Assembly (NCBI GenBank): GCA_964425475.1
Contig: CAYRMF010000001.1
Coordinates: 1-35,850 of the forward strand
Length of the DNA stretch: 35,850 nt
Source of the DNA: an uncultured Candidatus Saccharibacteria bacterium
GTDB taxonomy: Bacteria; Patescibacteriota; Minisyncoccia; Phycocordibacterales; UBA918
Reading direction: 5' to 3'
The notes beneath the pieces are model-generated. The model ran no database searches, was not told the origin of the DNA, and saw nothing but the letters and a program-made list of their open reading frames with translations. Every line of letters begins with the position of its first letter. The stretch's first letter is position 1. Below, in pieces: positions 1-35,652 of the stretch. The position numbers and the translations under genes were made by a program.

Positions 1-26
1 TCATTGTTTGACAGGTACAATTTTTC

Positions 27-19578: not shown

Positions 19579-20889
19579 CTATTCTACAAGAGTATCGAGA
19601 TCCGTATCATTGAGTACCGTTGAGGCATTATCCTTCCCTTCAATAGTGACCTCGTATGCTCTATTCTCAGTTGCATTCTGAATATACAACGATATAGCAA
19701 CAAACATCAGGATAAGTGAAGCGAGCGAGATGAAGAACCATTTATACTGTGTTACAAAATACCAAGCAGTTGCAAGTGTACTCTGGGACCTTTCTCCTGA
19801 AGTGAGCTGACTACGGAGATCAAGAACCCCTTTCTGAAGTGGTGCGGTTGCACGCGCATACGTGCGTTGCATTCTGAGTGGCTTGGCGTCATTTGTCTGC
19901 TCTTCTTCACGAGTAGCTCCACGTACCTCTACTCCAGCAAGTTCGAGCATGCGACGCACATATGCACGCACCATAAAGACAATAAGCCCAACAAAAACTG
20001 CGATGCTGAGTATTGTAATGAGCGTCCACTTCACCGGAATAACCCAAAAGTACGTTACGGCGTTTGTATCCGAGGAATTTTTCATATTACGCTCATCCCC
20101 GTAGGCGAGTGTCGCGACCGCTTTGTATCTACCAATGTCGGTGAAGCGGAAATCACTCTTCCATGAAAAAGAAAAGTCACGAATTGTCCCGGGGAGCACG
20201 TTGCCGAAGTGTGTTTGATAGTTTACCGGAATATTTCCACGCTCGGTGCCCCACATGTTTGTGATGACAATGTTCCCACGAGGAATGAGGTGCACATTCC
20301 CCTTATTTTCAAAACGAAGTGAAAACGATGCATCAGGCGTATCGAGGAATGAATCATTGACGCGAAACTCGCGAATTGTTCCCACTTCATGTACATCACC
20401 CTCAACGCGCAAAAACAAGAGTGACGTAACTGCTTGTGAAGTACGTACCGCGATTTCATTCGTTTCTTTTGGTGGTTCTGTAGAGATGAGGACCGCAGCA
20501 TAGTGTCCACCCGGTGAAGCATTTTGTGGTATTTCAGCAAAAAATTGAATGTCCTGTGTTTGCTCGGGTGGAATGGTAAAGGGGCCCTGTGGCATCTGTA
20601 TCCACTCACCAAATGTTGTGTTCTCTCCACCACTTTCAGCAAGCGTAAGAAATTTCCCCCTACCCTCCTCTCCAACAGCTTGAAAGTTGACCACCTCGGC
20701 GTACACAGTGAGTGGGTACGGGTTTCCATTGACCACCTTAATGCTACTCTGCCAAATATCACCAGGCATGACTGAAAGCTGAAAAAGTGGTGGTGTGACA
20801 CTGAGTACCTGCTTCTCGTCCGCATGCGCATATCCAGTGATGAAAAGCGCGTACGTAAAGACTGCAACAAAGAATATACTGTATTTCAT
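19579..20889 (-). CDS. DUF916/DUF3324-like cell-surface protein, paralogue 2 (436 aa; signal peptide, two beta domains, two TM segments)
   Basis: Signal peptide MKYSIFFVAVFTYALFITGYAHA. LSVTPPLFQLSVMPGDIWQSSIKVVNGNPYPLTVYAEV. W-I-x..PPEQTQDIQFFAEIPQNASPGGHYAAVLIS. Second domain ..FENKGNVHLIPRGNIVITN..GRYKAVATLAYG. ATGA overlap with the upstream gene. Confidence 0.6.
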   Translation of the reverse strand: MKYSIFFVAVFTYALFITGYAHADEKQVLSVTPPLFQLSVMPGDIWQSSIKVVNGNPYPLTVYAEVVNFQAVGEEGRGKFLTLAESGGENTTFGEWIQMPQGPFTIPPEQTQDIQFFAEIPQNASPGGHYAAVLISTEPPKETNEIAVRTSQAVTSLLFLRVEGDVHEVGTIREFRVNDSFLDTPDASFSLRFENKGNVHLIPRGNIVITNMWGTERGNIPVNYQTHFGNVLPGTIRDFSFSWKSDFRFTDIGRYKAVATLAYGDERNMKNSSDTNAVTYFWVIPVKWTLITILSIAVFVGLIVFMVRAYVRRMLELAGVEVRGATREEEQTNDAKPLRMQRTYARATAPLQKGVLDLRSQLTSGERSQSTLATAWYFVTQYKWFFISLASLILMFVAISLYIQNATENRAYEVTIEGKDNASTVLNDTDLDTLVE

Positions 20890-21920
20890 GATGGTTTGGT
20901 GAGATGAAGATCGTGACCTTTTGATGTACTGTGTCCATCACGTACGTGCACCGTGAGATGTTCGTGGTCATCATCCTGCATATCATCATCGAAGTAGCGA
21001 CGGTGGACATACCATGCACAGAGAGAAACAAAAATCACAAAACACGAAAGCATTATGATGAGCATGCGGAGCGGAAATATGTAAAAGAAACTGGTGTCTT
21101 GGAGCGAGGCACGTTGTGTCGAACCATACTCAACGGTGAGAAATGCTTTATATTTGCCAAATTTTCCTTCCGCAGGTATAGAGGCCGTGAAAGTGTGCTC
21201 TGCTTTGGGTTGAATACTTACGTTTTCAGTATTGACAGGAAGTGCTCCGACTTCCTTCCCCGTACTATCATAGAGAATAATCTCACCTGTTGGTGTCATA
21301 ACCTCATCACCCGGATTAGTAAACGTAAATGCTGCCGCTTGGTTGTCGCTACTCGTCACAAATCTCTCAACGATGAATTTTGAGAGCTTGAGAAATTCTC
21401 TGTTCTCTTCAGCAATCGTGATGGTAATGACCGTTCCGGGTGCTTGTCCATTTGCAACCTGCCGTTCTGCTTCATCGCGATTGCCACCATAACCAAAACC
21501 GATGAATGCGTGATAGGTGTTGGGTACTGGGGAGGGGTTCATGCGTATGGTAAGCGGAATCGTTTTCGACGTACCCGGTTGCAAATCAATTCCGAGACGA
21601 CTTATTTCAATCCATGAAGTCACCGACTTCGTACGGTCGCTCTCGACCGCTTGCTTGAATGCTTCGATGGTCCCTCCCTCTTTGAGGGATATTTCATTGA
21701 CACTTGGATACACCGTTACGGGGGTTTCGCCCGTGTTTGTGATTGTTATGTCTTTTGTAATGATGTCACGAGCGACTGCCTTGGTATCGATAACCATAGG
21801 CGAAACGGTATATGATATTGCAAAAACAAACCCCTTTGGATAAAAAAGGGAAACGCAGAGAAATGCAAACACTAAAAATTTAAAAGATTGGAACTGAAAC
21901 ATAGCGAATACGTGCTTCAT
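20886..21920 (-). CDS. DUF916/DUF3324-like cell-surface protein, paralogue 1 (about 344 aa; signal peptide, two beta domains, TM, acidic/His tail)
   Basis: The start is set at ATG 21920 (MKHVFAMFQFQSFKFLVFAFLCVSLFYPKGFVFA). Alternatives are 21932 and 21902, and all of them overlap the 3' end of the giant gene. YTVSPMVIDTKAVARDIITKDITITNTGETPVTVYPSV. SWIEISRLGIDLQPGTSKTIPLTI. Second domain FTFTNPGDEVMTPTGEIILYD..GKYKAFLTVEYG. Confidence 0.6.
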   Translation of the reverse strand: MKHVFAMFQFQSFKFLVFAFLCVSLFYPKGFVFAISYTVSPMVIDTKAVARDIITKDITITNTGETPVTVYPSVNEISLKEGGTIEAFKQAVESDRTKSVTSWIEISRLGIDLQPGTSKTIPLTIRMNPSPVPNTYHAFIGFGYGGNRDEAERQVANGQAPGTVITITIAEENREFLKLSKFIVERFVTSSDNQAAAFTFTNPGDEVMTPTGEIILYDSTGKEVGALPVNTENVSIQPKAEHTFTASIPAEGKFGKYKAFLTVEYGSTQRASLQDTSFFYIFPLRMLIIMLSCFVIFVSLCAWYVHRRYFDDDMQDDDHEHLTVHVRDGHSTSKGHDLHLTKPS

Positions 21921-24900
21921 ATAAGCCGGCATCTTGTAATGAACGAATAAACAACCGGTACACGATATCGGTCGTATCACTGACCGTAGGTTGTGAACTA
22001 TATGATACCTCATCTAGGGTCGATGTGCTCACACGCGCGTACGTGTCGATGGCAGAAAAACGTGTTGAGTCACCATTCAGCGTATCATCTCCAGTATGGT
22101 ATCCAAAACAGCTTTGTGCACCCACATCGCACCCGGAAGCCCAAGAAATGGGGGATGCATTCGTTCCTGTTACTGGTTTCATGTACGCACCATTGGTGCT
22201 CATCAAATCTCCATCCATGACCATAAATAGCTGATACCCCTGTGTGCCGTTTGTATCAATCGTAAGACGGTGTCCACCCTCACGCATCTGGTCGGCCACG
22301 AGCGTACCGAATGGAAGTGACGTTGGCGTGGTGTTGATATCGAGCGTTACACCCTCGATGACGGTCGATGAAGCGATGCCCGCCATGGTGAAGTTGAGGT
22401 GGGCACCCTCCGTCACCAATGATGGGTATGATTCGCTTGTATTTGTTGGTACGGGAATATTTTGCACAATATCAAACAATCTAAAGTAGTAGACGCGGTT
22501 GACGCGCGGGCCTGCTGACTGAATGGTAAACTCGTACTCAGCTGAGACGGTGTTATTGTGTCGATATCCCGTGAGTGCGCTCGGCGATTCGTTGTGTGTT
22601 CCACAGCCACTTCCCACACCAGCGACACACGATTCGGCATCAGAGAGTGTCACGGTAGAAATTTTTTCGTTATCGACTCCCCCACCATTTGCGTAGCACC
22701 ACGTTGAGGTGGCAAGGCACGTGCTCGTTGCGGTGACATCGAAAGCTTGTGTGAACGCTGGTGACTCTGAGTACTGCAGTTTGAATCGGACATCATCTCG
22801 TGACATGTTTTCGGTTTCTTTCACGGTCACGCGGAGTTTGAGCGCTTGGGTGTTTGCAATATCAACCGGTGCAACATTCTCAACGGCGAGCGTCGTCGTG
22901 GGAGTTTCGTCAATCTCATTATCATACCAACGCCAATTTTGTGTCTTTGGTGTAAAACTTGAGGTGCGTAACTGCGGATACTGTGCGTAGGTATCGAGTG
23001 GTGTATTGTCTGCCTCAACCATTCTGAAGCAGTAGAATGTTTCTCCCATGGCACCGTTCTGCTCGACAATCCAATCGTACTCAATATCGTCATCAACCGA
23101 GACCGCACTCTCATTCGCCTCGGTGTCATTCTGCTCCTCGAGCGTACCTAAGATATCAGACACAGAGAGTTTGAGTTCAGAGAGCGTCGTGCCGTCTGTC
23201 GTCGCTGTTGCGTTATAGCCACGCCAAATGGAACTCGATGCACTATTTCCCACCATCCGCCAGTCAGTTTCGGGAATAGCACTACACGAACTCACCATCG
23301 GACCATATTGGAGACGGAACGCTCTGACTCCCGCGGGGAAGGTTGCATTTTTTGCTTGAATCGACATGCGCATACGAATTCGCTCATTGCCGCCGAGTGG
23401 TTCATCTGCACCGGTGAGCACCGAATTTTCGCCTAGGTCTACTCCCCCCACGGGCCACGGGTCAGTGGGGGTGAGCTCATTATTATCGACATAGAATCGA
23501 TAGTAATTCTGTGTGAGTGCAAGACCAGCCGTTGGCCACTCCACAATTTCAGTCCTGAAGGTGAAGGTCGAACCAATATTACTTCTCCATATCTCATACG
23601 CGGTCGATGAGGCAATTGTGATGCCGGCGAGCGCTCGGGGAAATGTGGTATCAGCAACGGATGACCGTGCATTCGTAAAGATAGATGCGTTCGTGAGGTC
23701 ACTGAGCGTTTTTCCAACAGGAATGCTCAGCGTGAGTGGTGCTGTACCACCACTGAGCCACCCGCTTGATTTTGTCACCACCATAGCACCGTCTGTGGTC
23801 TGTGTGTTTTCAATAATCCACGCAACGGAGGTTTGACCGGATGGTGTTGTCGCACCCGTTTCAAGGTAGTAGGAAACGTACCCAATACTGGAAAGCCACA
23901 CCTCAGCTCCAAATTCATCGGTACCGTTGAGACCGGTAGTATTTCTTTTCTGGGTGTGTATGAACGTACGCGTGAGACTGCTCAGTGCAGAAATCGCTTC
24001 AGTCTCAGTAACTCCCGCAGTCGTATAGGTGTGCTGACTTCGTTGAATATTCCAGTTTGAGCCCGTAAACTCAACGACTGCATAGCTCACTTGGACTGCG
24101 TCCGAACCCGAAACACCTCTCCGAAAAATTGGTGCATTGAGAGATGCGTGCCACTCAGATGTTGAGAGGCCGGATTCATAATTTGTTGATGCTGTATCGG
24201 GATTCTGTTGTCCCGTGATGAATACCACCACTTTTGCATCATCGACAACATTCGAACGTACTGTACCTGTTGCACTCGTTGATCCGGTCCCATATCGGTG
24301 GAAGGTTTGTCCGCGGACAATCATTTCATTATCTCCTCCTGGGATGCCAATGTACTCTACAATCTCCCAACTCACTCGGGTCGTGCTCGAGATACCCGTA
24401 CGGGCAATGGTGACCGAGGTCATGATGTTGGAAGGATTTACGATATACGCAGTTGTGTTCGTAGCATTTTGAGCGAGGACGTTGCCTGTGTTATGCCCTG
24501 CTCCCGTATGTCCTATGTTCGTGATACGGATAAATGCACTCGTCGATGCAGAGGGGGTAATGTAGTCGACACCGGCAACAAGTGTCGTTGAGGTACTACT
24601 CGTCGCTATCGTCCTTGTGCCACGCTGTATCTCAAAATCTCTCTCCGGAGAAGTTGTGAGCTCGGGGTACTTGCTATACACATCGAGAGGAACGCCAGCT
24701 CCCGAGAGACGGAAACAGTATGTGGTGTTGTACCCGGCGCTCGTCGTCTGCTTGAGAGAAAATTCTGTTTCAATAAACTGCGTTGTGGTAAGTGCTGTAG
24801 ACGCAACCTGTGAAGAGGTGTCCTTTACTGCGCTGTTTGGGGTAAGGAATGTTGTGTTCTCATCGGTGACACCTCCGGCATTCACCGCGATATTGGTGGT

Positions 24901-27900
24901 GTCGCCTCCTTCCGTGAGATTGGTGGAGTTATACATGTCGAACGCACCGCCAACAGCCCCCACATCAGTCCACACATTTACCGCACTACAGGAAGAAATT
25001 TTGGTGCCGTACTCAAGTCGATATTCCGTTGCTTCTGCTGTAGTAGTGGTTGCCTCGTTGGACACCTGCATACGAAGTCTGAGTGGTGTTGCTTGAGAGA
25101 TGTTTGCAACCGCGGTGTCTTCCACTCCTCCTGTCGTTGAACTTGCGGTTGTCTCACTCCCGTTGTCGCTCCGCCAGTGATAGTGTGTCTGCGTATGTAC
25201 CGCGCCGATGAGTGCTGTCGACCCATTCATGTTACGCGCTATCTCCGGGCTCACACTTCCCCCACCTGAGATGAGTACATCCGCAGGGGGATTTGTAATT
25301 GCTATATCAATAGTTTCTCCATTCTGCGCACTCTGTGTTGTGTCGAGCACCGTATAGAGGCACATGGTTGCGGTCGTGGTGATGGTCACGGAGCCGGTGA
25401 ATGTCGATGTACCGTTCGCACTCGAAAACCCGTCGGTATCGGTGCTTCCAAACTGCGTGGCACCACCAACATACGATTCACTGCCACAATCGTACGGCGC
25501 TGAGGTGTCGAGATCGTAGTAGAGTTCGATGTTTTCAATATCACTCTGCCCATCAACGGTTCCCTGTTCAGAAATGGTAATACTTGTGACGTCGTGGCTC
25601 GTGCTGTTGTTGGTGATTACAAACGCACTTCCCACATAAAAATTCGTCGCAGGTAGGGTTGTGGTCGCCTGCTGTGAGGTCGTTGCGATATTCACCGCGA
25701 CATCCGCATTGATGTTTGCGCGCGGATAGTTCGTATAGGTGTGAAGTGGAGTACCCTCATCGGTAACACGAAAACAGTAGCTACTTCCATCTATCGCCGA
25801 TGAGGAAGCAACAATCGAGTATTCGAGTTCAACAAACTGTGAAGCGGTGAGTACGATATCATCTGTCTGTGATGAGGTATCGTTAATACCCCCATTTGGG
25901 GTGAGGAATGTGCTGTTCTCATCGGTGACTCCACCCACTCCAATAGCAATATTGGTCGTATTGCCCCCATCGAGCAAATTGGCAGAATCGTACATATCGA
26001 AGTGTCCACCGGCACTGCCGACATCTGTCCATCCACTCGCATCACCGCAGGCGCCAGAGTATTCCGCGTACTCTATGCGGTACTTCGTTGCGGGAGTGAC
26101 ACTACTTCCCTCGTTTGAGACCTCCATGCGAATGCGAGCGGGGGTCCCTTTGGGGAGGGCGAGGAGTGGTGTATCCTCAGCACCATTCGTTGTCGAGGTT
26201 GCTCCCGATTCGGTACCGCTGTCATCTCGCCAGTGATAGTGGGCAAGTGTCGGCATGTCATTGTATACGGATGTCGTGCCGGGAAGCGCCTGCACGGTGT
26301 TCGGGCTCGCAGTACTCCCAGCCACCACAACATCACTCGTTGGGTTCGTAACCTCGATATCAATTGTTGCATTACCTGGAGCACTATCTTGTACATCGAG
26401 TACCACGTAGAGACAGTATGCAGTGGTGGGACTAATCGTGAGCGTGGTACCACTAAACGAGGACACGCCATCTGCACCGGAAAATCCATCCGTATCGACC
26501 GAACCGAATTGCGCTTCACTCCCATCGTATGACTCACTCGCACAGTCGTACGGTGTAGCACTGTCTGCTTCGTAACGGAGTGTTGTATTTTTGAGGTGTG
26601 AAGAAGCATCAATAGTGCCCTTTTCAGTGAGCGTCACCCCCGTAACCGAAAACGTGTTCGTGTCTGAGGTATTGTAGAGCGTAATTGCTCCACCGATGTA
26701 CACGCCCGTAGTACCAGCGGACACTGAAGCGATTTGCGAACCGGTCGTCGGCTGTGCGGAGCTCGGCAAATCCACCATGGTTGCTCCATAGATATCGTCA
26801 TCGGTGTTATCAAACCAGCTCACATACATACGGTCAGCGCTCGACATCGGAAGATCAATGCCGTAGATATCGTCCGGATTTACCGTGTTCACCGGCCCCT
26901 GCTCATAGCCCCACGAATTCATCCCGTCTCGTGATCGCTTCCAAAGTACATTTGCCGTGAGAGCACTGTTTGCAATTCCTTGACCACTATATGCTACATA
27001 CACATCATCATTCGTAGAATCAAGTGCTACTGCGACGTTGGTGAGTCCCATGTTTGTGGTTGTAGCAGGATATGCCTTTGATATCCACGAGCCTCCGGTG
27101 TAGAGCGCTGTACGGATTTGGTCATCGGTACCCAACGTTGCATTGCGCGCAATGTAGGCGAGGTAGAGGTTCCCCGTAGAAGAACTGACAGCGACATCCA
27201 TACCCATGTCGTATGTTGCATTTTCAGGGGCTACAGCATCAATGGTAGTCCATGCAGCAGACCAGATAGTGTTATTCCATATTTTGTACCGAAGTACATC
27301 AGCTGAAATATCGCGGTTGATAACCATAATACTTCCGCCAGAGAGTGGCATGAGCATATTTTGGTCACTTGCTGCAGCATCGAGCGGATTTGCTCCTGTC
27401 TCCGACCAGTTACCCGCCACATTACACGAAATAGTACACTCGACTATATACGAATCAGGCCCGGTGGTACCGTCGTTCGATACCGCGTAGAGTGTGCCGT
27501 CAGTCCCACGCGTCACGGAGACAAAGTTTTCTGCTTCCGTGAGAGACCCTCCCTGACCGGCAGTCATGTTTGTCGGTGTACCTCCCGAGAGGAGTGTATC
27601 ATCGCTCGTATTGAGACGGTTGTACCAGAGGTCATCGGCACTCGCATCGGCGGTCACGATGTGGATACTCGAACTTGCTGATGCAATACCCGGTGTCCAC
27701 TTGTCGTACCACACGGTCACCTGGTGACAGTCTGTCTGTGAGTCAACGGTGGTTGTCGCACTCCATGTGCTACCACCATCAGTCGTCTTCCTGTACACAC
27801 AGTATCCTCCCACATCTCGGAAGAATTTATATCCCACCTGATCGCTCGTGAAGACACTCTGTGAACCCGACTGAAGGTGCGAGGTACCTGCGGCCGAGGT

Positions 27901-29265: not shown

Positions 29266-29350
29266 TTCCTCTTCATTATGGACTACTTAGACATCCAAAA
29301 CAATCGCATCCCTGTGTGAAAACGCTTTATAAAATCTATAAAAATTTTAA

Positions 29351-29359
29351 AATATAACA
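29351..29359 (-). promoter_or_regulatory. Extended -10 promoter TGtTATATT for the giant gene
   Basis: The minus strand reads ga-TGtTATATT-ttaaaa inside an AT-rich block, about 85 nt upstream of ATG 29265 and directly downstream of the twin hairpins. Confidence 0.45.
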
Positions 29360-29382
29360 TCTCCACATCAATCAACTAAACT

Positions 29383-29447
29383 AAATGAGCGACATCGTAA
29401 GTCGCTCATTTTTGAGTGTTATGAGCGACTTACGATGTCGCTCATTT
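29383..29447. repeat. Perfect 27-nt inverted repeat (29383..29409 / 29421..29447) whose arms are each a 9-bp-stem hairpin
   Basis: The left arm is AAATGAGCGACATCGTAAGTCGCTCAT. The right arm ATGAGCGACTTACGATGTCGCTCATTT is its exact reverse complement. The spacer is 11 nt. The stem ATGAGCGAC/GTCGCTCAT is identical in both arms, and the 7-nt loop is inverted. Confidence 0.9.
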
Positions 29448-29474
29448 TGCGGTGATGGTGGACTGAAATAGGTT

Positions 29475-31211
29475 TTACATGCGCGATTCTTCCTCAAGCA
29501 CATCTTCAAGTGGCACATATGGCTCAACTACCAAGTCCTCGATGTGTGCGGTGTCGGTAGATGTCGCGGTATTCTCAAATGATGGCACGAGCACATCAAC
29601 AGTTCCCGCGGGTGTACTTGTCGCTTCAGTCACGACAGGTTCCTCGCTTGGCGTCTCGAAGGATGGAATAACGATGTCGCCATCGTCGATACCATTGTCA
29701 GTTGTCGTTCCCACATCGTCATTTTCATCTGAATCGACTTTCTGTTTTGGTTGCGTTGTTGGTGACACGAGTGCGCGCTCTTCACCTGTTTGATCAGGGT
29801 CGGGAATCTCTTCGGGAACCGGGGTTGGCTTCGATGCGAGATCGACGATCTCACCGCTCTTGAGGTCGTATCCGCGCGTTTCGATATCGCCGGTCTCCAT
29901 TTTTGCATCATACACGAGCACAAAGCGCGGATTCTCAATTGAGCCACCTCCTGAATCGGAAACAGTATCGATGAGTCCAGTGCGAAGGTCATACACCTTC
30001 ACACGCCACACATCTCCTTCGAAGGATTGCCACACGACATGCGTTCCGTTCACGCTCGGTGCAATATCGTGAGTGGTATTATCGGTGAGCATGGTCACTT
30101 TCTCGTCTTCCAACATAAATATCTCCCAGTCACTTCCCACCCACCCCTGCCACACGACCGTGTCGCCAAAGACGCTCGGTTGCATGTTGTTGAAACTATC
30201 GTACGTCAGCTGTTTCTCACTCTCCTCATCAAAGTCGTACTGGATAATTTGGAAACGTCCGTCTATGAGACGGTGCCACACTGCAGTGTTGGAAACCTCA
30301 TCGAAGTACGGAGCGTCGTCATCAGCTTGATTATTTGTGAGTGGTGTCAACTCGCTATTCTTTTCAAGATATATTTCCTTGTCACCTTCTGCGTCGAGTG
30401 CTGAAAAGATTCTATCGGCGTTGAGCACCTGTGGTGCCTCGGTGGGGGTAGCGCAATAGAATGTGCCGTCGCCCACGGTGGTACACTCGTTTTTAGAGAA
30501 TGAAAATCTATTTTCATCGTTCGTGACAACGCTCACCACATTCTGAGAGGTGGTGAGGGGTGTGGCTGTCGCCTCTTCGGTGACACCATCAGGAAGAGTC
30601 ACTTCTGCTTCCACCTCATTCACCACTTCAGGGTCGACCGGGTCATCAGTCACAATCGCACTCCCCTCTGTCGTTGTTGCATCCGTCAAAGGAGCAGTAG
30701 GTGTATCACCACTTTCATCAATCGGTGTGTCGGCAGTGCCAGATGCCAAATCTTCTGCGATTACAGTATCAGCTATGGTATCGAAGGATGTTTCTAACGG
30801 TGTCGCCTCGGGCTCATCCACAGCTTGGAGTGGAATGTCTGAGGGTGCAGAATTGTTGACAGGCGCAGGTTCGATTGCAGGCGGTTGTGCATCTGGAGTG
30901 GTAATGTCTATGGTCGAATCGCTCTCAGGATTTTCAGGAAGAGCCGTATTGGGTTCAGTGCCATTCGTGGATTCAGGTGTGCTTTCTGTGGAAATTTCAT
31001 CGGCAAAAACGGGAGCAAGTGGCATACACACAAGCACAAAAAGCAAACACAACGAAAGAGCGCCGTAGACACGATACATCAAACCCCGCATGGACGTTCG
31101 CGAGTTTCCATTTATAGAATGCTGTTTCTTCATACCGTTTGCACAGATACGACAATATTCGGCTTTTGAGCCGTGTCGTACGTGAAGGCACGCATTGTCC
31201 ACATGACACAT
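29475..31211 (-). CDS. Membrane protein (578 aa): Cys/His-rich N-terminus, TM, acidic Thr/Pro/Glu linker, beta-propeller-like repeats, acidic tail
   Basis: The start is set at ATG 31211 because AAGAGGTG lies 6 nt upstream. The ORF track begins at TTG 31262, and ATG 31091 is also possible. N-terminus MCHVDNACLHVRHGSKAEYCRICANG. TM GALSLCLLFVLVCMPLAPVF. Repeats of the type P.V.G..VVWQ....W.I..YD. Confidence 0.65.
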   Translation of the reverse strand: MCHVDNACLHVRHGSKAEYCRICANGMKKQHSINGNSRTSMRGLMYRVYGALSLCLLFVLVCMPLAPVFADEISTESTPESTNGTEPNTALPENPESDSTIDITTPDAQPPAIEPAPVNNSAPSDIPLQAVDEPEATPLETSFDTIADTVIAEDLASGTADTPIDESGDTPTAPLTDATTTEGSAIVTDDPVDPEVVNEVEAEVTLPDGVTEEATATPLTTSQNVVSVVTNDENRFSFSKNECTTVGDGTFYCATPTEAPQVLNADRIFSALDAEGDKEIYLEKNSELTPLTNNQADDDAPYFDEVSNTAVWHRLIDGRFQIIQYDFDEESEKQLTYDSFNNMQPSVFGDTVVWQGWVGSDWEIFMLEDEKVTMLTDNTTHDIAPSVNGTHVVWQSFEGDVWRVKVYDLRTGLIDTVSDSGGGSIENPRFVLVYDAKMETGDIETRGYDLKSGEIVDLASKPTPVPEEIPDPDQTGEERALVSPTTQPKQKVDSDENDDVGTTTDNGIDDGDIVIPSFETPSEEPVVTEATSTPAGTVDVLVPSFENTATSTDTAHIEDLVVEPYVPLEDVLEEESRM

Positions 31212-31274
31212 TACGCACCTCTTAGCTAATGATAGCAAGGAGTGACAAGTATCCCTACACAATTATCAACAGTG

Positions 31275-32021
31275 CTACTTGCGGAAAGAGTCAGCGAGTA
31301 GAATTGAAAAGTCTTTAAACGTCATACGACCATCCCCATCAAAATCAAACAGTGCATTTCTCGTAAACCACGCTGACATAAATACACTGATGTCGGAAAG
31401 ATCGACATCCCCATCTCCATCAGTATCCGTCACAATAGAGACCGTCGCTTCGCCCGAGATAACCCCATCATCACCCAAAACAGCTATCACTGTCTGATTA
31501 TCAGCGAGCGATGGCGTAACACTCACTTCAGTACCTTTTCCATCTCCAGCAACAAGTGATGAGCCACTGACAAAAATACGTGCAGTACCGGCTTCTATTG
31601 CCCTCACTTTAATACGCGCGATGGTATGCTCGCCTATGAAACCTTTTCGAAATGTTCCACCACGAAGGTATATCTTCCCCGCTTTTGCAGAGGGTTCTTC
31701 AGTCCATAGAGTAATCACTGAGGTGCCGGTATCAATACCGAGCACTTGTATGGTGTCTTCAGGGTACCCAATCACCAAGTCAACGGCATTGATTGACACA
31801 TGCGCAGTGACATCGACATGTATATAAAACTCTTGATCTTGAGTCACCGTCTGTGCACTTGTACTTATGGTTACATAGGATGCATTTTCCCCAATAATCG
31901 ATGCAAGACCAGCTAAAAGTGCAGCAACAATAACAGCAGGAAACGCGTACTTGACTGTCGTGTACTGTGTTTCACTGTGTGAAGGAAAAAGTGCTTTCCA
32001 AAGTATTTTAAACATACTCAC
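31275..32021 (-). CDS. Membrane-anchored cohesin-like protein with C-terminal dockerin-like EF-hand pair (248 aa)
   Basis: TM FPAVIVAALLAGLASII. Cohesin-like module ..EFYIHVDVTAHVSINAVDLVIGYPEDTIQVLGIDTGTSVITLWTEEPS..GKIYLRGG..IARIKVRAIEAGTARIF. C-terminus DTDGDGDVDLSDISVFMSAWF..FDFDGDGRMTFKDFSILL. The start is GTG 32021, which overlaps the upstream stop as GTGA, or ATG 32015. Confidence 0.65.
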   Translation of the reverse strand: MSMFKILWKALFPSHSETQYTTVKYAFPAVIVAALLAGLASIIGENASYVTISTSAQTVTQDQEFYIHVDVTAHVSINAVDLVIGYPEDTIQVLGIDTGTSVITLWTEEPSAKAGKIYLRGGTFRKGFIGEHTIARIKVRAIEAGTARIFVSGSSLVAGDGKGTEVSVTPSLADNQTVIAVLGDDGVISGEATVSIVTDTDGDGDVDLSDISVFMSAWFTRNALFDFDGDGRMTFKDFSILLADSFRK

Positions 32022-32677
32022 TGAACTAATTGCGAGCGCAACTCATCAATACGCTGATTGTGCACCACAAGCAATTCATTGATTTCTTGTGCCTGTTGCA
32101 CCAGTTGCGTGACATGCTCACTTTGAGATGATTCACCGGTAATGAGTGAAGCAATAATTTCGTCCTGAATACGTGCTTGATCACCAAGTCCGGTACTCCG
32201 TCCCTTTTCAAGTTCAATAAGTGTATTCCACTCGGTGCGCTGGAATGAGTCAAAGTCTTCTCCACTGAGGAGAGCAAGTGTGTCAAGAAGTGTATTGTAG
32301 TGGACAATTTCACGCTCAAGTTTTGCAACCATGAGTGCTTTACGTTCTGCATAAAACATACCGCAACTCTCGGAAAGTGTCTGCACTGCGATGAGCTCTC
32401 GCATTGAAAGAGCTCCGAGATTGCCGAGGAGATTCTCATACTCATCACGACGTGGACAATCACGAACAATGCTCTGAATAATACTATCGGCACCATTACT
32501 GTCAGTTATCTCGGCCAATTGTGCCAAGTAGGATCTTTCTTCTTCAAGTTGCGTACGAAGAAGTGTTTCAAGTGCTCGCTGATTGTGGTGGACGTACCAC
32601 GTACCAATCACAAAAACAAGCGCGACGGAGAAGAGGACAAATGCGATGTAGAGGTGTTTTTCAAGTGAGTTTTTCAT
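32018..32677 (-). CDS. Membrane-anchored coiled-coil protein (219 aa), unknown function
   Basis: N-terminal TM LYIAFVLFSVALVFVIGTWYV, then a helical, heptad-like sequence rich in E/L/Q/R. It is tightly packed between cohesin-like genes. Confidence 0.6.
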   Translation of the reverse strand: MKNSLEKHLYIAFVLFSVALVFVIGTWYVHHNQRALETLLRTQLEEERSYLAQLAEITDSNGADSIIQSIVRDCPRRDEYENLLGNLGALSMRELIAVQTLSESCGMFYAERKALMVAKLEREIVHYNTLLDTLALLSGEDFDSFQRTEWNTLIELEKGRSTGLGDQARIQDEIIASLITGESSQSEHVTQLVQQAQEINELLVVHNQRIDELRSQLVQ

Positions 32678-32683
32678 ACAGTA

Positions 32684-34414
32684 TTATGAAACAACGCGTT
32701 CAATGTCTTCAATCTCCTTCCGAATCTTTCCCTGTGCCGACTTCAGATCATTTTCTATACGCTCAATGAGCACAAGTTCTGCTTTTGTGAGCTTACCCTT
32801 GCGTGATTCCTTGAGCTCACCAACATTCACATCAAGATTTTTAATAATCTCCGCAAATTCACGTGAGAGTCGGTCTTCGGCTTCAAATGTTTCTTTGCGA
32901 ACAGTGCGCTTCCAGCGCGCGAGACGGTGCCAGAGGTACCACGTGCCAAAGATGAGTACAATGAGGAGTGACACAATAGGGACAACTACCGAGAGAAAAT
33001 TGATGACGACCGTGCCCGCAGCAACGTACCCAGGAACTTCGGCAATTATTTTAATTGTGTCTGACTTTTCACTGACACTTCCGAATGCATCTCGTGCAAC
33101 GGCAGAAATAGTATACACACCCGTGTCGAAGGGAGTATCAGGAATGAAGGTGAACTCACCCTCTGCGTTACTCTGTACCACATAAGGATTACCTGTCCCC
33201 TCCTCCGCGACACTGAGGATAGTATTATCACTCGCGCGCACCACTTCAATTGTTACTGTTGCATTCGGACGTGTTTTCCCTTTAATGGCAGGAATAACTT
33301 CTGTGTTGATGCGTGTCGGATACTCAGTGAAGATAGGTTTCTCGAATGCATCAATGGTGAGCGAATAGCTCGCAACTGCTGTGTTACCCGCACTATCAAA
33401 CGCCTCAACTGAGATAGTGTGATAGCCCGGCAAGAGTGATTCGAGTGTGTACTGTTGTTTTTGTTCGGTATCAGTGAAGACGATCGGTTCCTTACCATCA
33501 ATTTGAATTTTATACTCGATAATTGGTGATGTGTCATCGAATGCAAATATGAGTACCTTTGCAGGATTCGTTGCGTCAAGGGGTTTTTCGGTGATAGTGA
33601 AGTTTTTTGGACCCTCCGTATCAACGGCGAGTTTGTACTCAGCAATCCGTCCCCATCCATCAGCATTTTTGAATTGCAAGTGGAAGTATGAAATTCCTTC
33701 GGGCAAATCCTCAAGTGTCTTCTTCGTAAGTGCTTCTTCATACACTTTTGTCGGTACGGTGCCACTTGTCCGATCGAGGAGCATTCGTACGGCAGTTACG
33801 CCTGCAGGCACTGTCCAACTCAGTGTTGCGTTTTTCTGCTTGTACCATGCAGTTTGATCAGGGTGTGTACTCGATGTTATTTTTGGTGCTTGCGGAGTGT
33901 TTGCAGGCGGTATGTACTCAGGTGCTGGAGTCTCCCCTTTCGCAGCAATCGTGAAGGAGCCACTGCCCATAGAGGTGAGCACATTGGTGCCCATACCGTC
34001 AGCAGCGAGCACGGAACCGCTTGAAAAAGTGACTTTTGGTGTCCCCGCTCCAAGCGGTCTGAAGGTTATGGAAACAATCGTTCCAGCTCCACCCTTATAC
34101 CCCGTGGGTGAACCACCACCGAATGAAACCGTCCCTGCGCTGTTTGAAAAAGTTGGCTCTTCTGTCCAAAGATTAAAAATGGAGCTTGCGCGTGTGACAC
34201 TGACCACCTGAAGTTCGCGCGTATTGAACGTAAGTTTGCCATCCGCCGCATTCACTGATTTCCCTTCGGTATTGAGCACAACCGATACACTGAACGGTGT
34301 TCCTGCTGTATACACTCCGGTGCTTGGACTTACCTTGAGCGTCGCAGCATCAGCACTATGCGCAACGAAAAAAAGAAACAGTCCGATTACCCACAATGTT
34401 TTGTTACTATTCAT
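32684..34414 (-). CDS. Cohesin-like surface protein with Ig-like repeats, C-terminal TM and cytoplasmic coiled-coil tail (576 aa)
   Basis: The start is set at ATG 34414 (MNSNKTLWVIGLFLFFVAHSADA / ATLKVSP). The longer ORF-track version overlaps the upstream gene. Cohesin-like ATLKVSPSTGVYTAGTPFSVSVVLNTEGKSVNAADGKLTFNTRELQVVSV..IFNLWTEEPTFSNSAGTVSFGGG..VTFSSGSVLAADGMGTNVLT. Also THPDQTAWY..GISYFHLQFKNADGW. TM VVPIVSLLIVLIFGTWYLW. Confidence 0.7.
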   Translation of the reverse strand: MNSNKTLWVIGLFLFFVAHSADAATLKVSPSTGVYTAGTPFSVSVVLNTEGKSVNAADGKLTFNTRELQVVSVTRASSIFNLWTEEPTFSNSAGTVSFGGGSPTGYKGGAGTIVSITFRPLGAGTPKVTFSSGSVLAADGMGTNVLTSMGSGSFTIAAKGETPAPEYIPPANTPQAPKITSSTHPDQTAWYKQKNATLSWTVPAGVTAVRMLLDRTSGTVPTKVYEEALTKKTLEDLPEGISYFHLQFKNADGWGRIAEYKLAVDTEGPKNFTITEKPLDATNPAKVLIFAFDDTSPIIEYKIQIDGKEPIVFTDTEQKQQYTLESLLPGYHTISVEAFDSAGNTAVASYSLTIDAFEKPIFTEYPTRINTEVIPAIKGKTRPNATVTIEVVRASDNTILSVAEEGTGNPYVVQSNAEGEFTFIPDTPFDTGVYTISAVARDAFGSVSEKSDTIKIIAEVPGYVAAGTVVINFLSVVVPIVSLLIVLIFGTWYLWHRLARWKRTVRKETFEAEDRLSREFAEIIKNLDVNVGELKESRKGKLTKAELVLIERIENDLKSAQGKIRKEIEDIERVVS

Positions 34415-34418
34415 ATAT

Positions 34419-35435
34419 TTATTGTTCTTTTGAATTTTCGTTTCCTTCCAATCGTTTCTTTCGTTTCCAAAGTACAAAGAACACCAGTACCACGATACAT
34501 AGCAATACCCCACCGAGCACACTGATCAGTATCAGCATATCGGATGAGATGCTTCTGAGTGCGGTATCGGGAACCAAAGTCACAATACGAACATTTCCAG
34601 CTTTATCGAGTGCTTTTACACGGATGGTGCTGTTCAGTGTTTGGTCTTTGAGTACGTATGGACTTTCTGTCTGTACCCATGGAGCATCGGCACGTCCCCA
34701 CTTAAATGCATTAAATTCAGAAAATGGTTCCTCCATAACCTCATAGTGATCGATACCGGACTGTTTATCACTTGCGTTAAATACGATGAAATACTCACCA
34801 CTGAATGCATAATCGTCCTTCGTAAGCGTGATAGCAAAATCAGAGGGAAGCTCTGTATCACTTTGTACACTCTCACGCCATGCATCTTGTATGCTCTGGC
34901 CTACAGTATCATCGAGCGTGATGATTGCATCCCGGAGTGTTAACGGTGCTGGTGTACCGTAGCCATCATGGAGCAGTACCTGTGAAACTTCATCAAGCCA
35001 TACATGTGGGGTCTTGTTTGTATTTGCACCTCCAATACTTAACCCCGGTGACTTAAACACAATTTGCAAAATAACATTCGTGAGTGATGGATCACCTGCG
35101 ATACGTCCACAGTATCCGCCAGGAACACCGCCAGCAAAATGTATTGTTCGGTTTACTTCATCAATAGTCGGGTCTTCTACCCAGATATTGAGAATAGAAT
35201 TACCTCGTGAAATATCAACCGCAATAATGCTCTCATCATAGTGAATGAGCGCATCGAAAGTATTCACACATTCTCCCTCATCAGTATCAATACGCAAATC
35301 AACCACAACACTATCTCCGTGATGAATATTTACTGCACTGGGATCAAAATACAGTGTTGCCGCATGAGTGTCTGGTACACCAAAAGAGAATGCGCATACA
35401 GAGAAAAAACAAAACGCAAGAAATGTACGTATCAT
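34419..35435 (-). CDS. Cohesin-like surface protein with C-terminal TM anchor (338 aa)
   Basis: Signal peptide MIRTFLAFCFFSVCAFSFGVPDTHA / ATLYFDP. Cohesin-like ..GDSVVVDLRIDTDEGECVNTFDALIHYDESIIAVDISRGNSILNIWVEDPTIDEVNRTIHFAGGVPGG. C-terminal TM LILISVLGGVLLCIVVLVFFVLW followed by a basic tail. Confidence 0.7.
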   Translation of the reverse strand: MIRTFLAFCFFSVCAFSFGVPDTHAATLYFDPSAVNIHHGDSVVVDLRIDTDEGECVNTFDALIHYDESIIAVDISRGNSILNIWVEDPTIDEVNRTIHFAGGVPGGYCGRIAGDPSLTNVILQIVFKSPGLSIGGANTNKTPHVWLDEVSQVLLHDGYGTPAPLTLRDAIITLDDTVGQSIQDAWRESVQSDTELPSDFAITLTKDDYAFSGEYFIVFNASDKQSGIDHYEVMEEPFSEFNAFKWGRADAPWVQTESPYVLKDQTLNSTIRVKALDKAGNVRIVTLVPDTALRSISSDMLILISVLGGVLLCIVVLVFFVLWKRKKRLEGNENSKEQ

Positions 35436-35447
35436 AGGTATTGCTCT

Positions 35448-35456
35448 AGTATAACA
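35448..35456 (-). promoter_or_regulatory. Extended -10 promoter TGtTATACT for the cohesin operon (very short leader)
   Basis: The minus strand reads tt-TGtTATACT-agagcaatacct-ATG. Only 12 nt separate the -10 from the start codon, and there is no SD. Confidence 0.45.
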
Positions 35457-35560
35457 AACGAAATCAGCGTAAAAGCTATCTGTACACAGAGGTGGAAGTA
35501 TTCATTGTGGCGTTCCATATCTCAGTACTATCGGAGGTACTCTGAACGTAAGACAAATGA

Positions 35561-35591: not shown

Positions 35592-35652
35592 CTAGTTTCT
35601 TCCTTTGGTCGAAACTATCGACAACCTCGATTAAAGTGGTCTATACCACTTT

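What the first reader, a model, noticed from the sequence alone, without database searches (positions are those of the whole stretch)
19579..35456. 16-kb single-strand cell-surface locus combining cohesin/dockerin modules, a 2461-aa propeller giant and WxL-locus-like membrane anchors
Eight consecutive minus-strand genes are packed with overlaps or gaps of 63 nt or less, apart from one 209-bp intergenic region that carries twin hairpins and a promoter.

In transcription order the genes are:
1. 338 aa: signal peptide, cohesin-like module, TM.
2. 576 aa: signal peptide, cohesin-like module, Ig-like repeats, TM, coiled-coil tail.
3. 219 aa: TM plus coiled coil.
4. 248 aa: TM, cohesin-like module, dockerin-like EF-hand pair.
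5. 578 aa: Cys/His-rich N-terminus, TM, acidic linker, propeller-like repeats.
6. The 2461-aa giant protein.
7..8. Two paralogous DUF916/DUF3324-like membrane proteins.

Every product is predicted to be secreted or membrane-anchored, and none is an enzyme I recognise. Cohesin-dockerin pairing is the assembly principle of cellulosomes. WxL/DUF916 loci are a Firmicute cell-wall display system. As far as I know, a locus uniting both with a giant Asp-box propeller protein is not a described system. In a small-genome CPR-like organism it is a strong candidate for a modular host-attachment or surface-scaffold apparatus.
Basis: partly seen in the sequence, partly recalled or inferred. Interest (0 to 1): 0.85.

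Follow-up and report, generated by a model that had tools for sequence, protein, structure and literature searches.

The report
CPR surface-display locus with WxLIP-like anchors
A gene cluster conserved across a large group of ultra-small uncultured bacteria (Paceibacteria) encodes a 2461-residue surface giant next to two membrane proteins that are distant relatives of the anchors of the WxL display system of lactic acid bacteria and enterococci, plus cohesin/dockerin membrane proteins; this looks like an undescribed way for these bacteria to hold large proteins on their surface.

Summary
The eight minus-strand genes, their tight packing and the 209-bp spacer with twin hairpins are real.

**Supported**
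- P2 passes Pfam's Cohesin cut-off, and P1 and P4 carry homologous modules.
- All 28 P4 orthologues match Dockerin_1.
- P7 and P8 are paralogues. Their family profile matches genuine Firmicute WxLIP (DUF916-DUF3324-TM) proteins: hhalign 96.8%, E 2.4e-10, both Ig domains. The P8 model hits solved E. faecium WxLIP structures.

**New**
- The giant ends in an unannotated ~180-aa beta-sandwich ("C-dom"; model pLDDT 95.6).
- C-dom defines about 3,160 protein clusters. In all 150 listed hits it is the last domain.
- A C-dom gene lies next to a WxLIP-like gene in 77 of 81 loci.
- C-dom is not detectably a WxL domain.

**Conservation**
- The order P4-P5-giant-P7-P8 recurs in about 60 Paceibacteria species.

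**Corrections**
- P5's "Cys/His-rich N-terminus" is untranslated leader.
- The Asp-box propeller call is weak.
- The 3' boundary is arbitrary.

**Reading**
- This is most likely a sortase-free, non-covalent display system analogous to WxL clusters, with a new partner domain and an adjacent cohesin-dockerin scaffold.
- No binding or biological role has been shown.
- I found no description in the searchable literature.

The parts
34419..35435 (-). P1, 338 aa: signal peptide, cohesin-like module, Ig-like region, C-terminal TM
   Evidence: ORF. The N-module is homologous to the P2 cohesin module (BLASTP E 6e-14). Pfam Cohesin is only E 0.16 on its own. Hydrophobic segments at residues 2-20 and 295-313.
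32684..34414 (-). P2, 576 aa: signal peptide, cohesin module, Big_13 Ig-like repeats, TM, cytoplasmic coiled-coil tail
   Evidence: Pfam Cohesin 27.4 bits, above the 24.1 cut-off. Big_13 E 2.7e-11. Residues 391-449 match PDB 2yn3. TM at 460-478.
32018..32677 (-). P3, 219 aa: N-terminal TM plus helical region; poorly conserved
   Evidence: ORF. No family match. Orthologues found in only some loci, at 25-49% identity.
31275..32021 (-). P4, 248 aa: N-terminal TM, cohesin-like module, C-terminal dockerin (residues 198-246 = 31284-31430)
   Evidence: All 28 orthologues match Pfam Dockerin_1 (best E 2e-7) and 9 of 28 match Cohesin. The cohesin module is homologous to P2 (E 3e-13). The tail has an invariant duplicated DxDGDG...DFNxDG motif. 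Solved dockerins are hit weakly (2y3n E 0.0096).
29475..31133 (-). P5, about 552 aa (revised start): signal peptide, acidic linker, beta-propeller repeats
   Evidence: TIGR04275 beta-propeller repeat E 2.3e-13. The upstream Cys/His-rich stretch is not conserved and is interrupted by a stop codon in three of the five relatives checked. P5 lies directly upstream of the giant in about 50 loci.
29266..29474 (-). 209-bp spacer: twin hairpins (about 29421-29448 and 29383-29413), then a promoter-like site (29371-29344) and a Shine-Dalgarno sequence before the giant
   Evidence: Sequence read. It contains the best terminator-like hairpin of the region (11-bp stem) and the match TTGATG-16-TAAAAT. These are consensus matches only.
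22420..29265 (-). P6 giant, residues 1-2282: N-terminal hydrophobic signal or anchor; two 51%-identical ~400-aa propeller units (27946-29118 and 26731-27903); two ~350-aa duplicated units (25696-26718 and 24646-25653); a unique region; repeated W..YxFR beta domains
   Evidence: Self-comparison. BNR_2 only E 2e-4, below the cut-off. One strict Asp-box per propeller. Otherwise no Pfam, NCBIfam or PDB sequence match. Orthologues of 1800-2490 aa occupy the same position in about 60 species.
21883..22419 (-). C-dom: the last ~180 aa of the giant; a novel, obligately C-terminal beta-sandwich and the proposed handle for the P7/P8 anchors
   Evidence: AF2 pLDDT 95.6. No Pfam or PDB sequence match in 40 members. 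The family has 3161 clusters at E<=1e-3, and in all 150 listed hits the matched stretch ends at or within 3 residues of the C-terminus of proteins 216-3762 aa long. Foldseek best hits are the TasA fibre and chaperone-usher pilins, weakly (TM 0.35-0.45). Not detectably WxL.
20886..21920 (-). P7, 344 aa: signal peptide, two Ig-like domains, C-terminal TM; WxLIP-like paralogue 1
   Evidence: Paralogue of P8 (E 7e-17). WxLIP_PGBD 21.5 bits, below the cut-off. Family profile against real WxLIP: hhalign 96.8%, E 2.4e-10.
19579..20889 (-). P8, 436 aa: signal peptide, two Ig-like domains, TM, conserved cytoplasmic loop, second TM, short outside tail; WxLIP-like paralogue 2 and the most conserved protein of the locus
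   Evidence: More than 1537 homologues at 50-65% identity, with invariant motifs. 20 of 27 members match WxLIP_PGBD weakly. Model pLDDT 76. Foldseek hits 9i1y and 9i25_C (E. faecium WxLIP, E 4e-9 and 9e-9) and the chaperone-usher chaperones CfaA, Caf1M and CsuC. Some orthologues carry a C-terminal LytR_C domain.
19051..19530 (-). 159-aa membrane protein directly after P8; possible accessory, unproven
   Evidence: Follows P8 in 59 loci, including the giant-less L027. Absent from the loci with extra C-dom/WxLIP units. Only a faint MliC match, E 0.09.

Best explanation
The locus is a cell-envelope display apparatus made of two transcription units.

**Unit 2 (giant P6, P7, P8) is the core.**
- The giant is exported by Sec.
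- It has no sortase motif and no C-terminal membrane helix.
- It is held on the cell because its last ~180 residues (C-dom, a compact beta-sandwich) bind the two-Ig-domain ectodomains of the membrane-anchored paralogues P7 and P8.
- P7 and P8 are remote homologues of Firmicute WxLIP (DUF916-DUF3324-TM). By analogy, binding would be by beta-strand augmentation: a loop of the first Ig domain completes a sheet of the partner.
- The propellers and beta domains of the giant are thereby displayed outward.

**Unit 1 (P1-P5)** supplies three membrane-anchored cohesin-module proteins, one of which (P4) also carries a dockerin. They could link to each other in a Ca2+-dependent manner into a membrane-proximal scaffold. 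A propeller protein (P5) travels with the giant.

**Shown versus inferred.**
- Shown: the domain identities, the homology of P7/P8 to WxLIP, the obligate C-terminal position of C-dom, its genomic coupling to WxLIP-like genes, and the conservation across Paceibacteria.
- Inferred: the physical C-dom/WxLIP-like contact, cohesin-dockerin pairing, any coupling of the two units, and the biological role. The role could be host contact or a structural envelope layer; the evidence does not separate these.
For: 1. **P7/P8 are WxLIP homologues.**
- hhalign of the family profile against six genuine WxLIP proteins gives 96.6-96.8% probability and E 2.4e-10 to 6e-10 over about 235 columns spanning both Ig domains. 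Controls against other beta-rich profiles give P 0.03-0.13.
- WxLIP_PGBD is the top Pfam family: 20 of 27 and 15 of 26 members, best E 5e-7.
- The P8 model hits solved EfmWxLIP1 entries (9i1y, and 9i25 "bound to long WxL"). The identity of those entries was confirmed with a real WxLIP at E 5e-37.

2. **C-dom behaves as an anchoring handle.**
- In all 150 listed hits it is the last domain, on proteins of 216-3762 aa; the family has 3161 clusters in all.
- The N-terminal cargo is diverse: BNR-like, Kelch, LVIVD and Y_Y_Y domains.
- There is no TM helix or LPXTG motif.

3. **Genomic coupling in independent contexts.**
- A C-dom gene lies within 1.5 kb of a WxLIP-like gene in 77 of 81 loci. The exceptions are contig ends and L027.
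- Extra small C-dom genes come with an extra WxLIP-like gene: the gene orders CWWCW and CWWCCW (C = C-dom gene, W = WxLIP-like gene), and loci L086 and L087.

4. **Parallel with Firmicute WxL clusters.** Those have a small plus a large protein sharing a C-terminal domain, next to a WxLIP gene. AF2 there predicts that a WxLIP loop completes the WxL sandwich (PMC10599100, PMC9772566).

5. **Cohesin and dockerin.**

6. **Link between the units.** In L027 the P1-P4 genes sit between a small C-dom gene and P7/P8, with no giant.

7. **Conservation.** The order P4-P5-giant-P7-P8 is kept in about 60 species down to about 40% identity, including a closed 0.99-Mb Nomurabacteria genome.
Against:
- C-dom shows no significant similarity to WxL domains, so the analogy rests on the anchor protein and on the architecture only.
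- The C-dom model is complete and confident as a monomer, so a missing-strand groove is not evident.
- Stoichiometry is inverted relative to Firmicutes: two WxLIP-like genes per C-dom protein here, against one WxLIP per two or more WxL proteins there.
- P8 has features WxLIP lacks: a second TM helix, a conserved cytoplasmic loop and very high ectodomain conservation. These hint at an additional, possibly signalling or enzymatic, role.
- The giant has an N-terminal hydrophobic segment that may itself anchor it.
- Synteny extends to housekeeping genes, and a terminator/promoter pair separates units 1 and 2, so their functional coupling is weakly supported.
- A distance-matrix co-evolution test was underpowered: 18 loci, partial r 0.36 for C-dom and P8.
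Confidence: 0.55

Rival explanations
1. It is a true, highly diverged WxL cluster. C-dom is a WxL domain that has drifted beyond detection and binds peptidoglycan, with P7/P8 stabilising it on the wall as proposed for Firmicutes.
For: - P7/P8 are homologous to WxLIP.
- C-dom has the same size (~180 aa) and the same obligate C-terminal position, with small and large forms.
- The best, though non-significant, hhalign local matches fall motif on motif: GYxV against GWxL, and the last strand Y...IxYxxVP against Y...LxWxLxDxP.
- Some P8 orthologues carry LytR_C, a domain of cell-envelope-associated LytR-type proteins.
Against: - Pfam's WxL model matches none of 40 members at E<=5.
- hhalign gives P no better than 0.04, while the small-versus-large WxL control gives 97.9%.
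- A local WxL HMM gives only out-of-register weak hits.
- There is no Trp-x-Leu pair.
- There is no LPXTG protein or sortase in the cluster (compare).
Confidence: 0.2
2. It is a donor-strand fibre system. C-dom proteins polymerise like TasA or chaperone-usher pilins. P7/P8 act as membrane-tethered chaperones or assembly platforms rather than as static anchors.
For: - Foldseek's best hits for C-dom are the TasA fibre (8aur) and FimA, FimG and PapA pilins.
- P8's hits include the chaperones CfaA, Caf1M and CsuC (TM 0.45-0.56 normalised to the target).
- Small ~370-aa C-dom proteins are abundant.
Against: - TM-scores are low (0.35-0.45) with rmsd of 6-14 A.
- There is no usher, SipW-type peptidase or sortase.
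- A 2461-aa protein is an unlikely fibre subunit.
- This window has only one C-dom protein.
- The C-dom model folds confidently without a donated strand.
Confidence: 0.12
3. There is no single 16-kb system. Only giant-P7-P8 is a functional module. The cohesin/dockerin genes P1-P5 are independent envelope proteins that sit nearby because gene order is generally frozen in these small genomes.
For: - Synteny also covers redoxin, AI-2E permease, CapA, FKBP, TGT, HD and UvrB.
- A hairpin plus promoter separates P5 from the giant.
- Small C-dom/WxLIP-like clusters (L072, L074, L082, L084, L086, L087) have no cohesin genes next to them.
- In L061 and L085 the P1/P2-like genes lie about 10 kb away on the other side.
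Against: - In L027, P1-P4 lie between a C-dom gene and P7/P8.
- P4 and P5 immediately precede the giant in about 50 loci.
- All the products share the same cellular compartment.
Confidence: 0.3

Closest known systems
WxL / Csc surface-protein clusters of Lactobacillales and Bacillales (small WxL + large WxL + WxLIP = DUF916-DUF3324-TM)
   Same: - The membrane protein has a signal peptide, two Ig-like domains and a C-terminal TM, and is demonstrably homologous (hhalign 96.8%; Foldseek to 9i1y and 9i25).
- The partner proteins carry a shared ~180-aa domain that is always C-terminal, in small and large forms, with variable N-terminal cargo.
- Partner and anchor genes are adjacent.
- Attachment is non-covalent, with no TM on the cargo.
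   Different: - The partner domain is not recognisably WxL and has no Trp-x-Leu motifs.
- There are two WxLIP-like paralogues per cargo rather than one per two or more WxL proteins.
- There is no LPXTG protein or sortase.
- P8 has an extra TM helix, a cytoplasmic loop and sometimes LytR_C.
- The cargo is a 2461-aa giant that is conserved rather than variable.
- The host lineage is CPR, whereas WxL is reported almost only in Bacilli (PMC9772566).
Cohesin-dockerin assemblies (cellulosomes and non-cellulosomal cohesin/dockerin proteins)
   Same: A Pfam-level cohesin module (P2) with two homologous modules (P1, P4), and a duplicated Ca2+-loop dockerin at the C-terminus of P4.
   Different: - No enzyme or carbohydrate-binding module carries a dockerin.
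- All the cohesin bearers are membrane-anchored by a TM helix rather than by SLH or sortase.
- Cohesin and dockerin sit in the same 248-aa protein.
- Binding is untested.
- The organism has no evident polysaccharide-degrading context in this window.
Chaperone-usher pili and TasA-type donor-strand fibres
   Same: A two-Ig-domain protein resembling PapD-class chaperones, and a beta-sandwich partner whose nearest solved folds are pilins and TasA. Strand complementation is the plausible binding mode.
   Different: - No usher.
- The chaperone-like proteins are membrane-anchored.
- Similarity scores are low.
- The partner is the terminal domain of a giant, not a pilin.

Membership tests
WxLIP (DUF916/PGBD - DUF3324/HBD - TM helix) | N-terminal DUF916 (WxLIP_PGBD, PF06030) domain | tested here: met
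   For P7 (21 bits) and most members the match is below Pfam's cut-off (27.3). It is still the top family in 20 of 27 and 15 of 26 members (best E 5e-7), and one relative (P0350) scores 28.3 bits, above the cut-off. hhalign against real WxLIP gives 96.8%.
WxLIP (DUF916/PGBD - DUF3324/HBD - TM helix) | Second Ig-like domain (DUF3324, WxLIP_HBD) forming one unit with the first | tested here: inconclusive
   Pfam's WxLIP_HBD never matches. However, the hhalign alignment runs through WxLIP residues 18-279, which covers both domains, and the P8 model has two beta domains.
WxLIP (DUF916/PGBD - DUF3324/HBD - TM helix) | Signal peptide and a single C-terminal TM helix, about 340-365 aa | tested here: met
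   P7 has 344 aa with a signal peptide and a TM at residues 308-326 of the 375-aa ORF numbering. P8 deviates: 436 aa with two TM helices.
WxL gene cluster (Hassan & Williamson definition: at least one WxLIP plus at least two WxL proteins within four genes) | At least two proteins with a WxL domain (PF13731; dual Trp-x-Leu motifs) | tested here: not met
   No Pfam WxL match in the giant or in 40 C-dom relatives. hhalign against 18 real WxL domains gives P>=0.04, while the positive control gives 97.9%. The window has only one C-dom protein.
WxL gene cluster | Partner domain always C-terminal, in small and large forms, encoded next to the WxLIP gene | tested here: met
   This holds for C-dom, not for WxL.
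WxL gene cluster | Peptidoglycan binding by the partner domain, and physical WxLIP-partner contact | not testable with these tools
   This needs binding assays or multimer prediction. The only support is the title of PDB entry 9i25, which reports WxLIP bound to a long WxL in E. faecium.
Cohesin (PF00963) | Profile match above the curated cut-off | tested here: met
   P2 scores 27.4 bits against 24.1. P1 and P4 qualify only through homology to P2 (E 6e-14 and 3e-13) and through weak hits in 9 of 28 P4 orthologues.
Dockerin type I (PF00404) | Duplicated Ca2+-binding loop-helix segment of about 22 residues at a protein terminus | tested here: met
   The window's P4 scores 19.5 bits, below the 22.9 cut-off, but all 28 orthologues match (best E 2e-7). 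The invariant pattern is D..DGDG.V...D...F...W and DFN.DG.M.F.DF. EF-hand models score similarly, so the fold class is certain and dockerin function is not.
Cohesin-dockerin system | Specific cohesin-dockerin binding | not testable with these tools
   No multimer prediction or experiment was available.
BNR/Asp-box sialidase-like propeller | Repeated S-x-D-x-G-x-T-W motifs and a BNR profile match | tested here: inconclusive
   BNR_2 gives E 2.4e-4 (21 bits against a 31.4 cut-off). One strict and one degenerate Asp-box per ~400-aa unit. No structure was predicted for this part.
TasA / chaperone-usher pilin fold | Structural match with TM>0.5 and an incomplete Ig fold completed by a donor strand | tested here: not met
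   The best TM-score normalised to the query is 0.43 (up to 0.51 normalised to a short target), at E 1e-3 with rmsd 6-14 A. The model is confident as a monomer.

The most novel reading that the evidence does not exclude
C-dom plus WxLIP-like membrane proteins form an ancient, CPR-wide, sortase-independent system for hanging secreted proteins on the cell. It would be evolutionarily related to the Firmicute WxL system but use a different, so far unannotated, handle domain. Thousands of cargo proteins, from 350-aa singletons to 3700-aa giants, would be displayed this way. In Paceibacteria one such cargo, a ~2000-2500-aa propeller giant with two dedicated anchors and an adjacent cohesin-dockerin scaffold, would be a core envelope organelle: the host-contact structure or the surface lattice of these ultra-small cells.
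Probability: 0.4. Interest if true: 0.78.

Novelty: new variant of a known kind. Interest (0 to 1): 0.62.

Why it matters
**The gap it addresses.** Paceibacteria (Parcubacteria) are among the most abundant and least understood bacteria. They are thought to live attached to other cells, yet apart from type IV pili almost nothing is known about how their surface is built.

**What this locus offers.**
- It gives a concrete, testable candidate: a surface apparatus that takes up about 1.6% of a ~1-Mb genome and is kept across the class.
- It extends the WxLIP anchor family well outside the Bacilli.
- It defines a large unannotated domain family (about 3,160 clusters) whose position and gene neighbourhood predict its job. 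That would let thousands of "hypothetical" CPR proteins be read as surface-displayed cargo.
- It provides a second, independent case for asking how WxLIP-type proteins hold their partners.

Tried and rejected
1. **SipW/TasA-type operon.** This idea came from a Peptidase_S24 hit upstream of P7/P8 in L004/L005. Rejected: that ORF is an S24 (LexA/UmuD-like, by my reading) N-terminus fused to the last ~380 aa of a giant orthologue, so it is a truncation or chimera.

2. **Single-sequence search with C-dom**. It returned only 8 fragments. The profile search and the exhaustive search were needed.

3. **C-dom as a WxL domain.** Tested four ways: Pfam, a PDB profile, a local WxL HMM with filters off, and hhalign in three modes against small, large and pooled WxL alignments. 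All were non-significant.

4. **Finding the WxL chain of 9i25 by sequence,** to judge its absence from the Foldseek top 50. No hit, so that absence is uninformative.

5. **P8-only profile against WxLIP**. Weak, because the P8 alignment is too narrow. The broader family profile was decisive.

6. **Mirror-tree co-evolution** of C-dom, P7 and P8 against the neighbours. Only 18 shared loci and modest partial correlations, so not used as evidence.

7. **The P0350 "fusion" of a WxLIP-like part with C-dom**. It keeps an internal signal peptide, so it may be a read-through of two genes. It is treated as weak evidence only.

8. **tRNA and Rfam scans of the window**. Nothing found.

9. **Literature searches** for WxL, DUF916, cohesin, dockerin or TasA together with CPR terms. 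No description of this locus was found.

Full report
**1. The observation**

The window consists entirely of minus-strand genes. Spacing is 4 nt, 6 nt, a 4-nt overlap, 63 nt, 209 nt, an overlap, and a 4-nt overlap.

The 209-bp spacer (29266-29474) holds two hairpins with the same 9-11-bp stem. Their loops are reverse complements of each other. The second hairpin is the strongest terminator-like site in the region. It is followed by TTGATG-16-TAAAAT and a GAGG ribosome-binding site before the giant's ATG. P1-P5 and P6-P8 are therefore probably separate transcription units.

Every product has an N-terminal and/or C-terminal hydrophobic segment.

Three corrections apply:
- P5's "Cys/His-rich N-terminus" is not conserved and is broken by a stop codon in three of the five relatives checked. 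The conserved start is MKKQH at 31133 (552 aa), which makes the P4-P5 gap about 141 nt.
- P7 was called at 344 aa in a public assembly.
- Packing stays tight downstream of P8: 48 nt to a 159-aa membrane protein, then 3 nt to a redoxin. The 3' limit is arbitrary.

**2. Organism**

Exact or near-exact copies occur only on short metagenome contigs and in one species-level MAG (L006, 97% identity). Named relatives are Kaiserbacteria, Nomurabacteria, Jorgensenbacteria, Paceibacterota and Minisyncoccia. These belong to the Parcubacteria group of Patescibacteria. The CPR guess was right.

**3. Unit 1: cohesin and dockerin**

- P2 matches Pfam Cohesin above the curated cut-off (27.4 against 24.1 bits) and Big_13.
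- The N-modules of P1 and P4 are homologous to it (E 6e-14 and 3e-13).
- The window's P4 is just below the Dockerin_1 cut-off. All 28 orthologues collected from related loci match it (best E 2e-7), and the tail is nearly invariant: TDxDGDGxVxLxDISxFMxAW...YDFNxDGxMTFxDFSIILAxSF. Solved dockerins and EF-hand proteins are both hit weakly.
- P5 carries TIGR04275-type propeller repeats.
- P3 has no match.
- The Ca-binding pair in the 916-aa protein is a bacterial TSP3 repeat, not a dockerin.

**4. Unit 2: the anchors**

P7 and P8 are paralogues (E 7e-17 over 279 residues).

P8 belongs to a family of more than 1,500 database clusters. Members are 50-65% identical and share invariant ectodomain motifs: VTPPLFQ, PGGHY, RFENKGNVHLQPRG and NMWGTERGxIP. 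Some members carry a C-terminal LytR_C domain.

On their own, most members match Pfam WxLIP_PGBD (DUF916) only below threshold: 20 of 27 and 15 of 26.

To test homology properly I fetched six genuine WxL clusters from Enterococcus, Melissococcus and Listeria replicons. The profile of the CPR family aligns to real WxLIP proteins with 96.6-96.8% probability and E 2.4e-10 to 6e-10, over about 235 columns that span both Ig domains. Controls against other beta-rich profiles give P 0.03-0.13.

The AlphaFold model of P8 (pLDDT 76) has two beta domains, then a TM helix, a disordered loop, helices and a second TM helix. Foldseek places the solved E. faecium WxLIP entries 9i1y and 9i25 ("bound to long WxL") among its top hits, together with the chaperone-usher chaperones CfaA, Caf1M and CsuC. 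The identity of those PDB entries was checked with a real WxLIP (E 5e-37).

P7 and P8 are therefore remote WxLIP homologues. DUF3324 is not detected by Pfam but is covered by the profile alignment.

**5. Unit 2: the giant and its C-terminal domain**

The giant's architecture:
- an N-terminal hydrophobic segment;
- two 51%-identical ~400-aa units with weak BNR_2 similarity and one strict Asp-box each;
- two ~350-aa duplicated units;
- a unique region;
- four beta domains ending in a YxFR motif;
- a final ~180-aa domain, here called C-dom.

Almost none of this is covered by Pfam, NCBIfam or PDB sequences.

C-dom has a conserved signature: C.GYH..D..L...RF..D.YA...E..YS..P...DIVYR..V...Q.AG.Y...I.YIAVPVF-COOH. 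Its model is very confident (pLDDT 95.6).

An exhaustive profile search finds 3,161 representative clusters (615 at E<=1e-30). In all 150 listed hits the match runs to the end, or within 3 residues of the end, of proteins 216 to 3,762 aa long. Many of these are ~370-aa "small" forms. Large forms carry varied cargo, including Kelch, LVIVD and Y_Y_Y domains.

With local HMMs, a C-dom gene lies within 1.5 kb of a WxLIP-like gene in 77 of 81 non-redundant loci. The exceptions are three contig ends and L027. Writing C for a C-dom gene and W for a WxLIP-like gene, the gene-order patterns are CWW (66 loci), CWWCW (6), CCWW (3) and CWWCCW (2). Unrelated contexts repeat the pairing: W-C-W next to rpoBC in L086, and Kelch-C, W, C, C, W in a Dojkabacteria contig.

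This is the logic of Firmicute WxL clusters. There, a small and a large protein share an always-C-terminal domain next to a WxLIP gene, and AlphaFold predicts that a WxLIP loop completes the partner's beta-sandwich (PMC9772566, PMC10599100).

**6. Is C-dom a WxL domain?**

It could not be shown:
- Pfam's WxL model matches none of 40 members.
- hhalign against 13 small and 5 large genuine WxL domains gives P>=0.04, while the small-versus-large WxL control gives 97.9%.
- A local WxL HMM with filters off gives only weak, out-of-register hits.

The best non-significant local matches do fall motif on motif: GYxV against GWxL, and the last strand. Extreme divergence is therefore not excluded.

Foldseek's nearest solved folds are the TasA fibre and chaperone-usher pilins, at low TM-scores (0.35-0.45). 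I could not locate a WxL chain in the PDB copy by sequence, so its absence from the top 50 says nothing.

**7. Conservation**

Using the P8 profile, 80 loci from GTDB species representatives were fetched.

The order P4-P5-giant-P7-P8-159aa-redoxin-AI-2E-CapA holds in about 60 of them, down to about 40% identity. Giants there are 1,800-2,490 aa, often with one propeller instead of two. One of these loci is in a closed 0.99-Mb Nomurabacteria chromosome.

The giant is as conserved as its housekeeping neighbours. In L049, for example, the giant is 45-50% identical, against 46% for AI-2E and 36% for CapA. This argues against a fast-evolving adhesin and for a conserved ligand or a structural role.

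Because synteny also covers housekeeping genes, it cannot delimit the system. The independent evidence for coupling is the recurrent C-dom/WxLIP-like adjacency and, for unit 1, locus L027. There, P1-P4 lie between a small C-dom gene and P7/P8, and both the giant and P5 are absent.

**8. Interpretation**

The best-supported reading is a sortase-free, non-covalent display system:
- Two WxLIP-homologous membrane anchors hold the giant by its C-terminal handle.
- An adjacent cohesin-dockerin membrane scaffold sits beside them.

Physical contacts, the coupling of the two units and the biological role are all inferred.

Rival readings:
- a diverged true WxL cluster;
- a donor-strand fibre system;
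- two unrelated neighbouring modules.

**9. Novelty**

I found no paper linking WxL, DUF916, cohesin or dockerin to CPR. C-dom is absent from Pfam (2025 copy) and from NCBIfam (June 2026 release).

I class this as a new variant of a known kind. It is a WxLIP-type anchoring system with a new partner domain, in a new phylum-level lineage, combined with cohesin-dockerin modules.

Noticed in passing
window 35554-35850 (copies at 35554-35589, 35646-35681 and 35815-35850): There are three copies of a 36-46-nt direct repeat in the non-coding DNA upstream of P1. Each copy has a small hairpin (TCCCT-TAC-AGGGA). The repeat is found nowhere else in the window, with 0 matches expected by chance. All public contigs that carry P1 break about 150-250 nt upstream of it, which suggests a repeated element or a regulatory array. 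No tRNA or Rfam match.
   Followed up: partly
window 11920-14091: A 723-aa secreted protein with repeated SGYAWSENIGWISF motifs and no family match. It lies between the HD-domain gene and tgt. It was found at this position only in the same-species MAG (L006), and a relative lies on the opposite strand in L024. It is missing from the other related loci, so it looks like a lineage-specific insertion into an otherwise frozen gene order.
   Followed up: partly
L004 7499-8986 (the same ORF occurs in L005 and L013; GCA_021734905.1): A 495-aa ORF joins an S24 peptidase-type N-terminus (LexA/UmuD-like, by my reading) to the last ~380 residues of a giant orthologue, just upstream of P7/P8. It is either a natural truncation of the giant or an assembly chimera.
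   Followed up: partly
L025, L029, L030: Contigs carrying the full CPR-type cluster are deposited in MAGs labelled Azotimanducaceae, Acidimicrobiales and Patiriisocius. These are most likely binning errors. Many other MAGs carry a generic 'uncultured Candidatus Saccharibacteria' label although their relatives are Paceibacteria.
   Followed up: no
P0087, P0091, P0107, P0114, P0119; alignment columns 480-590 of A1: Some P8 orthologues carry an extra ~100-aa C-terminal LytR_C domain (PF13399) after the second TM helix. This places the P8 C-terminus outside the cell and hints at contact with the cell wall.
   Followed up: partly
window 6165-8915: A 916-aa protein (TM, Thr/Ser-rich repeats, coiled coil, TSP3-type Ca-binding repeats, Big_13, C-terminal TM). 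It is syntenic in many of the relatives, about 8-10 kb downstream of P8, and is another conserved surface protein of unknown role.
   Followed up: no
P0350 (666 aa): A single predicted protein contains a WxLIP-like part with its TM helix, then a signal-peptide-like segment, then a small C-dom protein. It is either a real fusion or a read-through of two adjacent genes. Its WxLIP_PGBD match is above Pfam's cut-off.
   Followed up: partly
window 1-35850 compared with L002-L005: The whole gene order from the giant through redoxin, AI-2E permease, CapA, FKBP, tgt and HD to uvrB and the 916-aa protein is kept between relatives whose P8 is only 56-63% identical. This is unusually rigid synteny for functionally unrelated genes.
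   Followed up: partly
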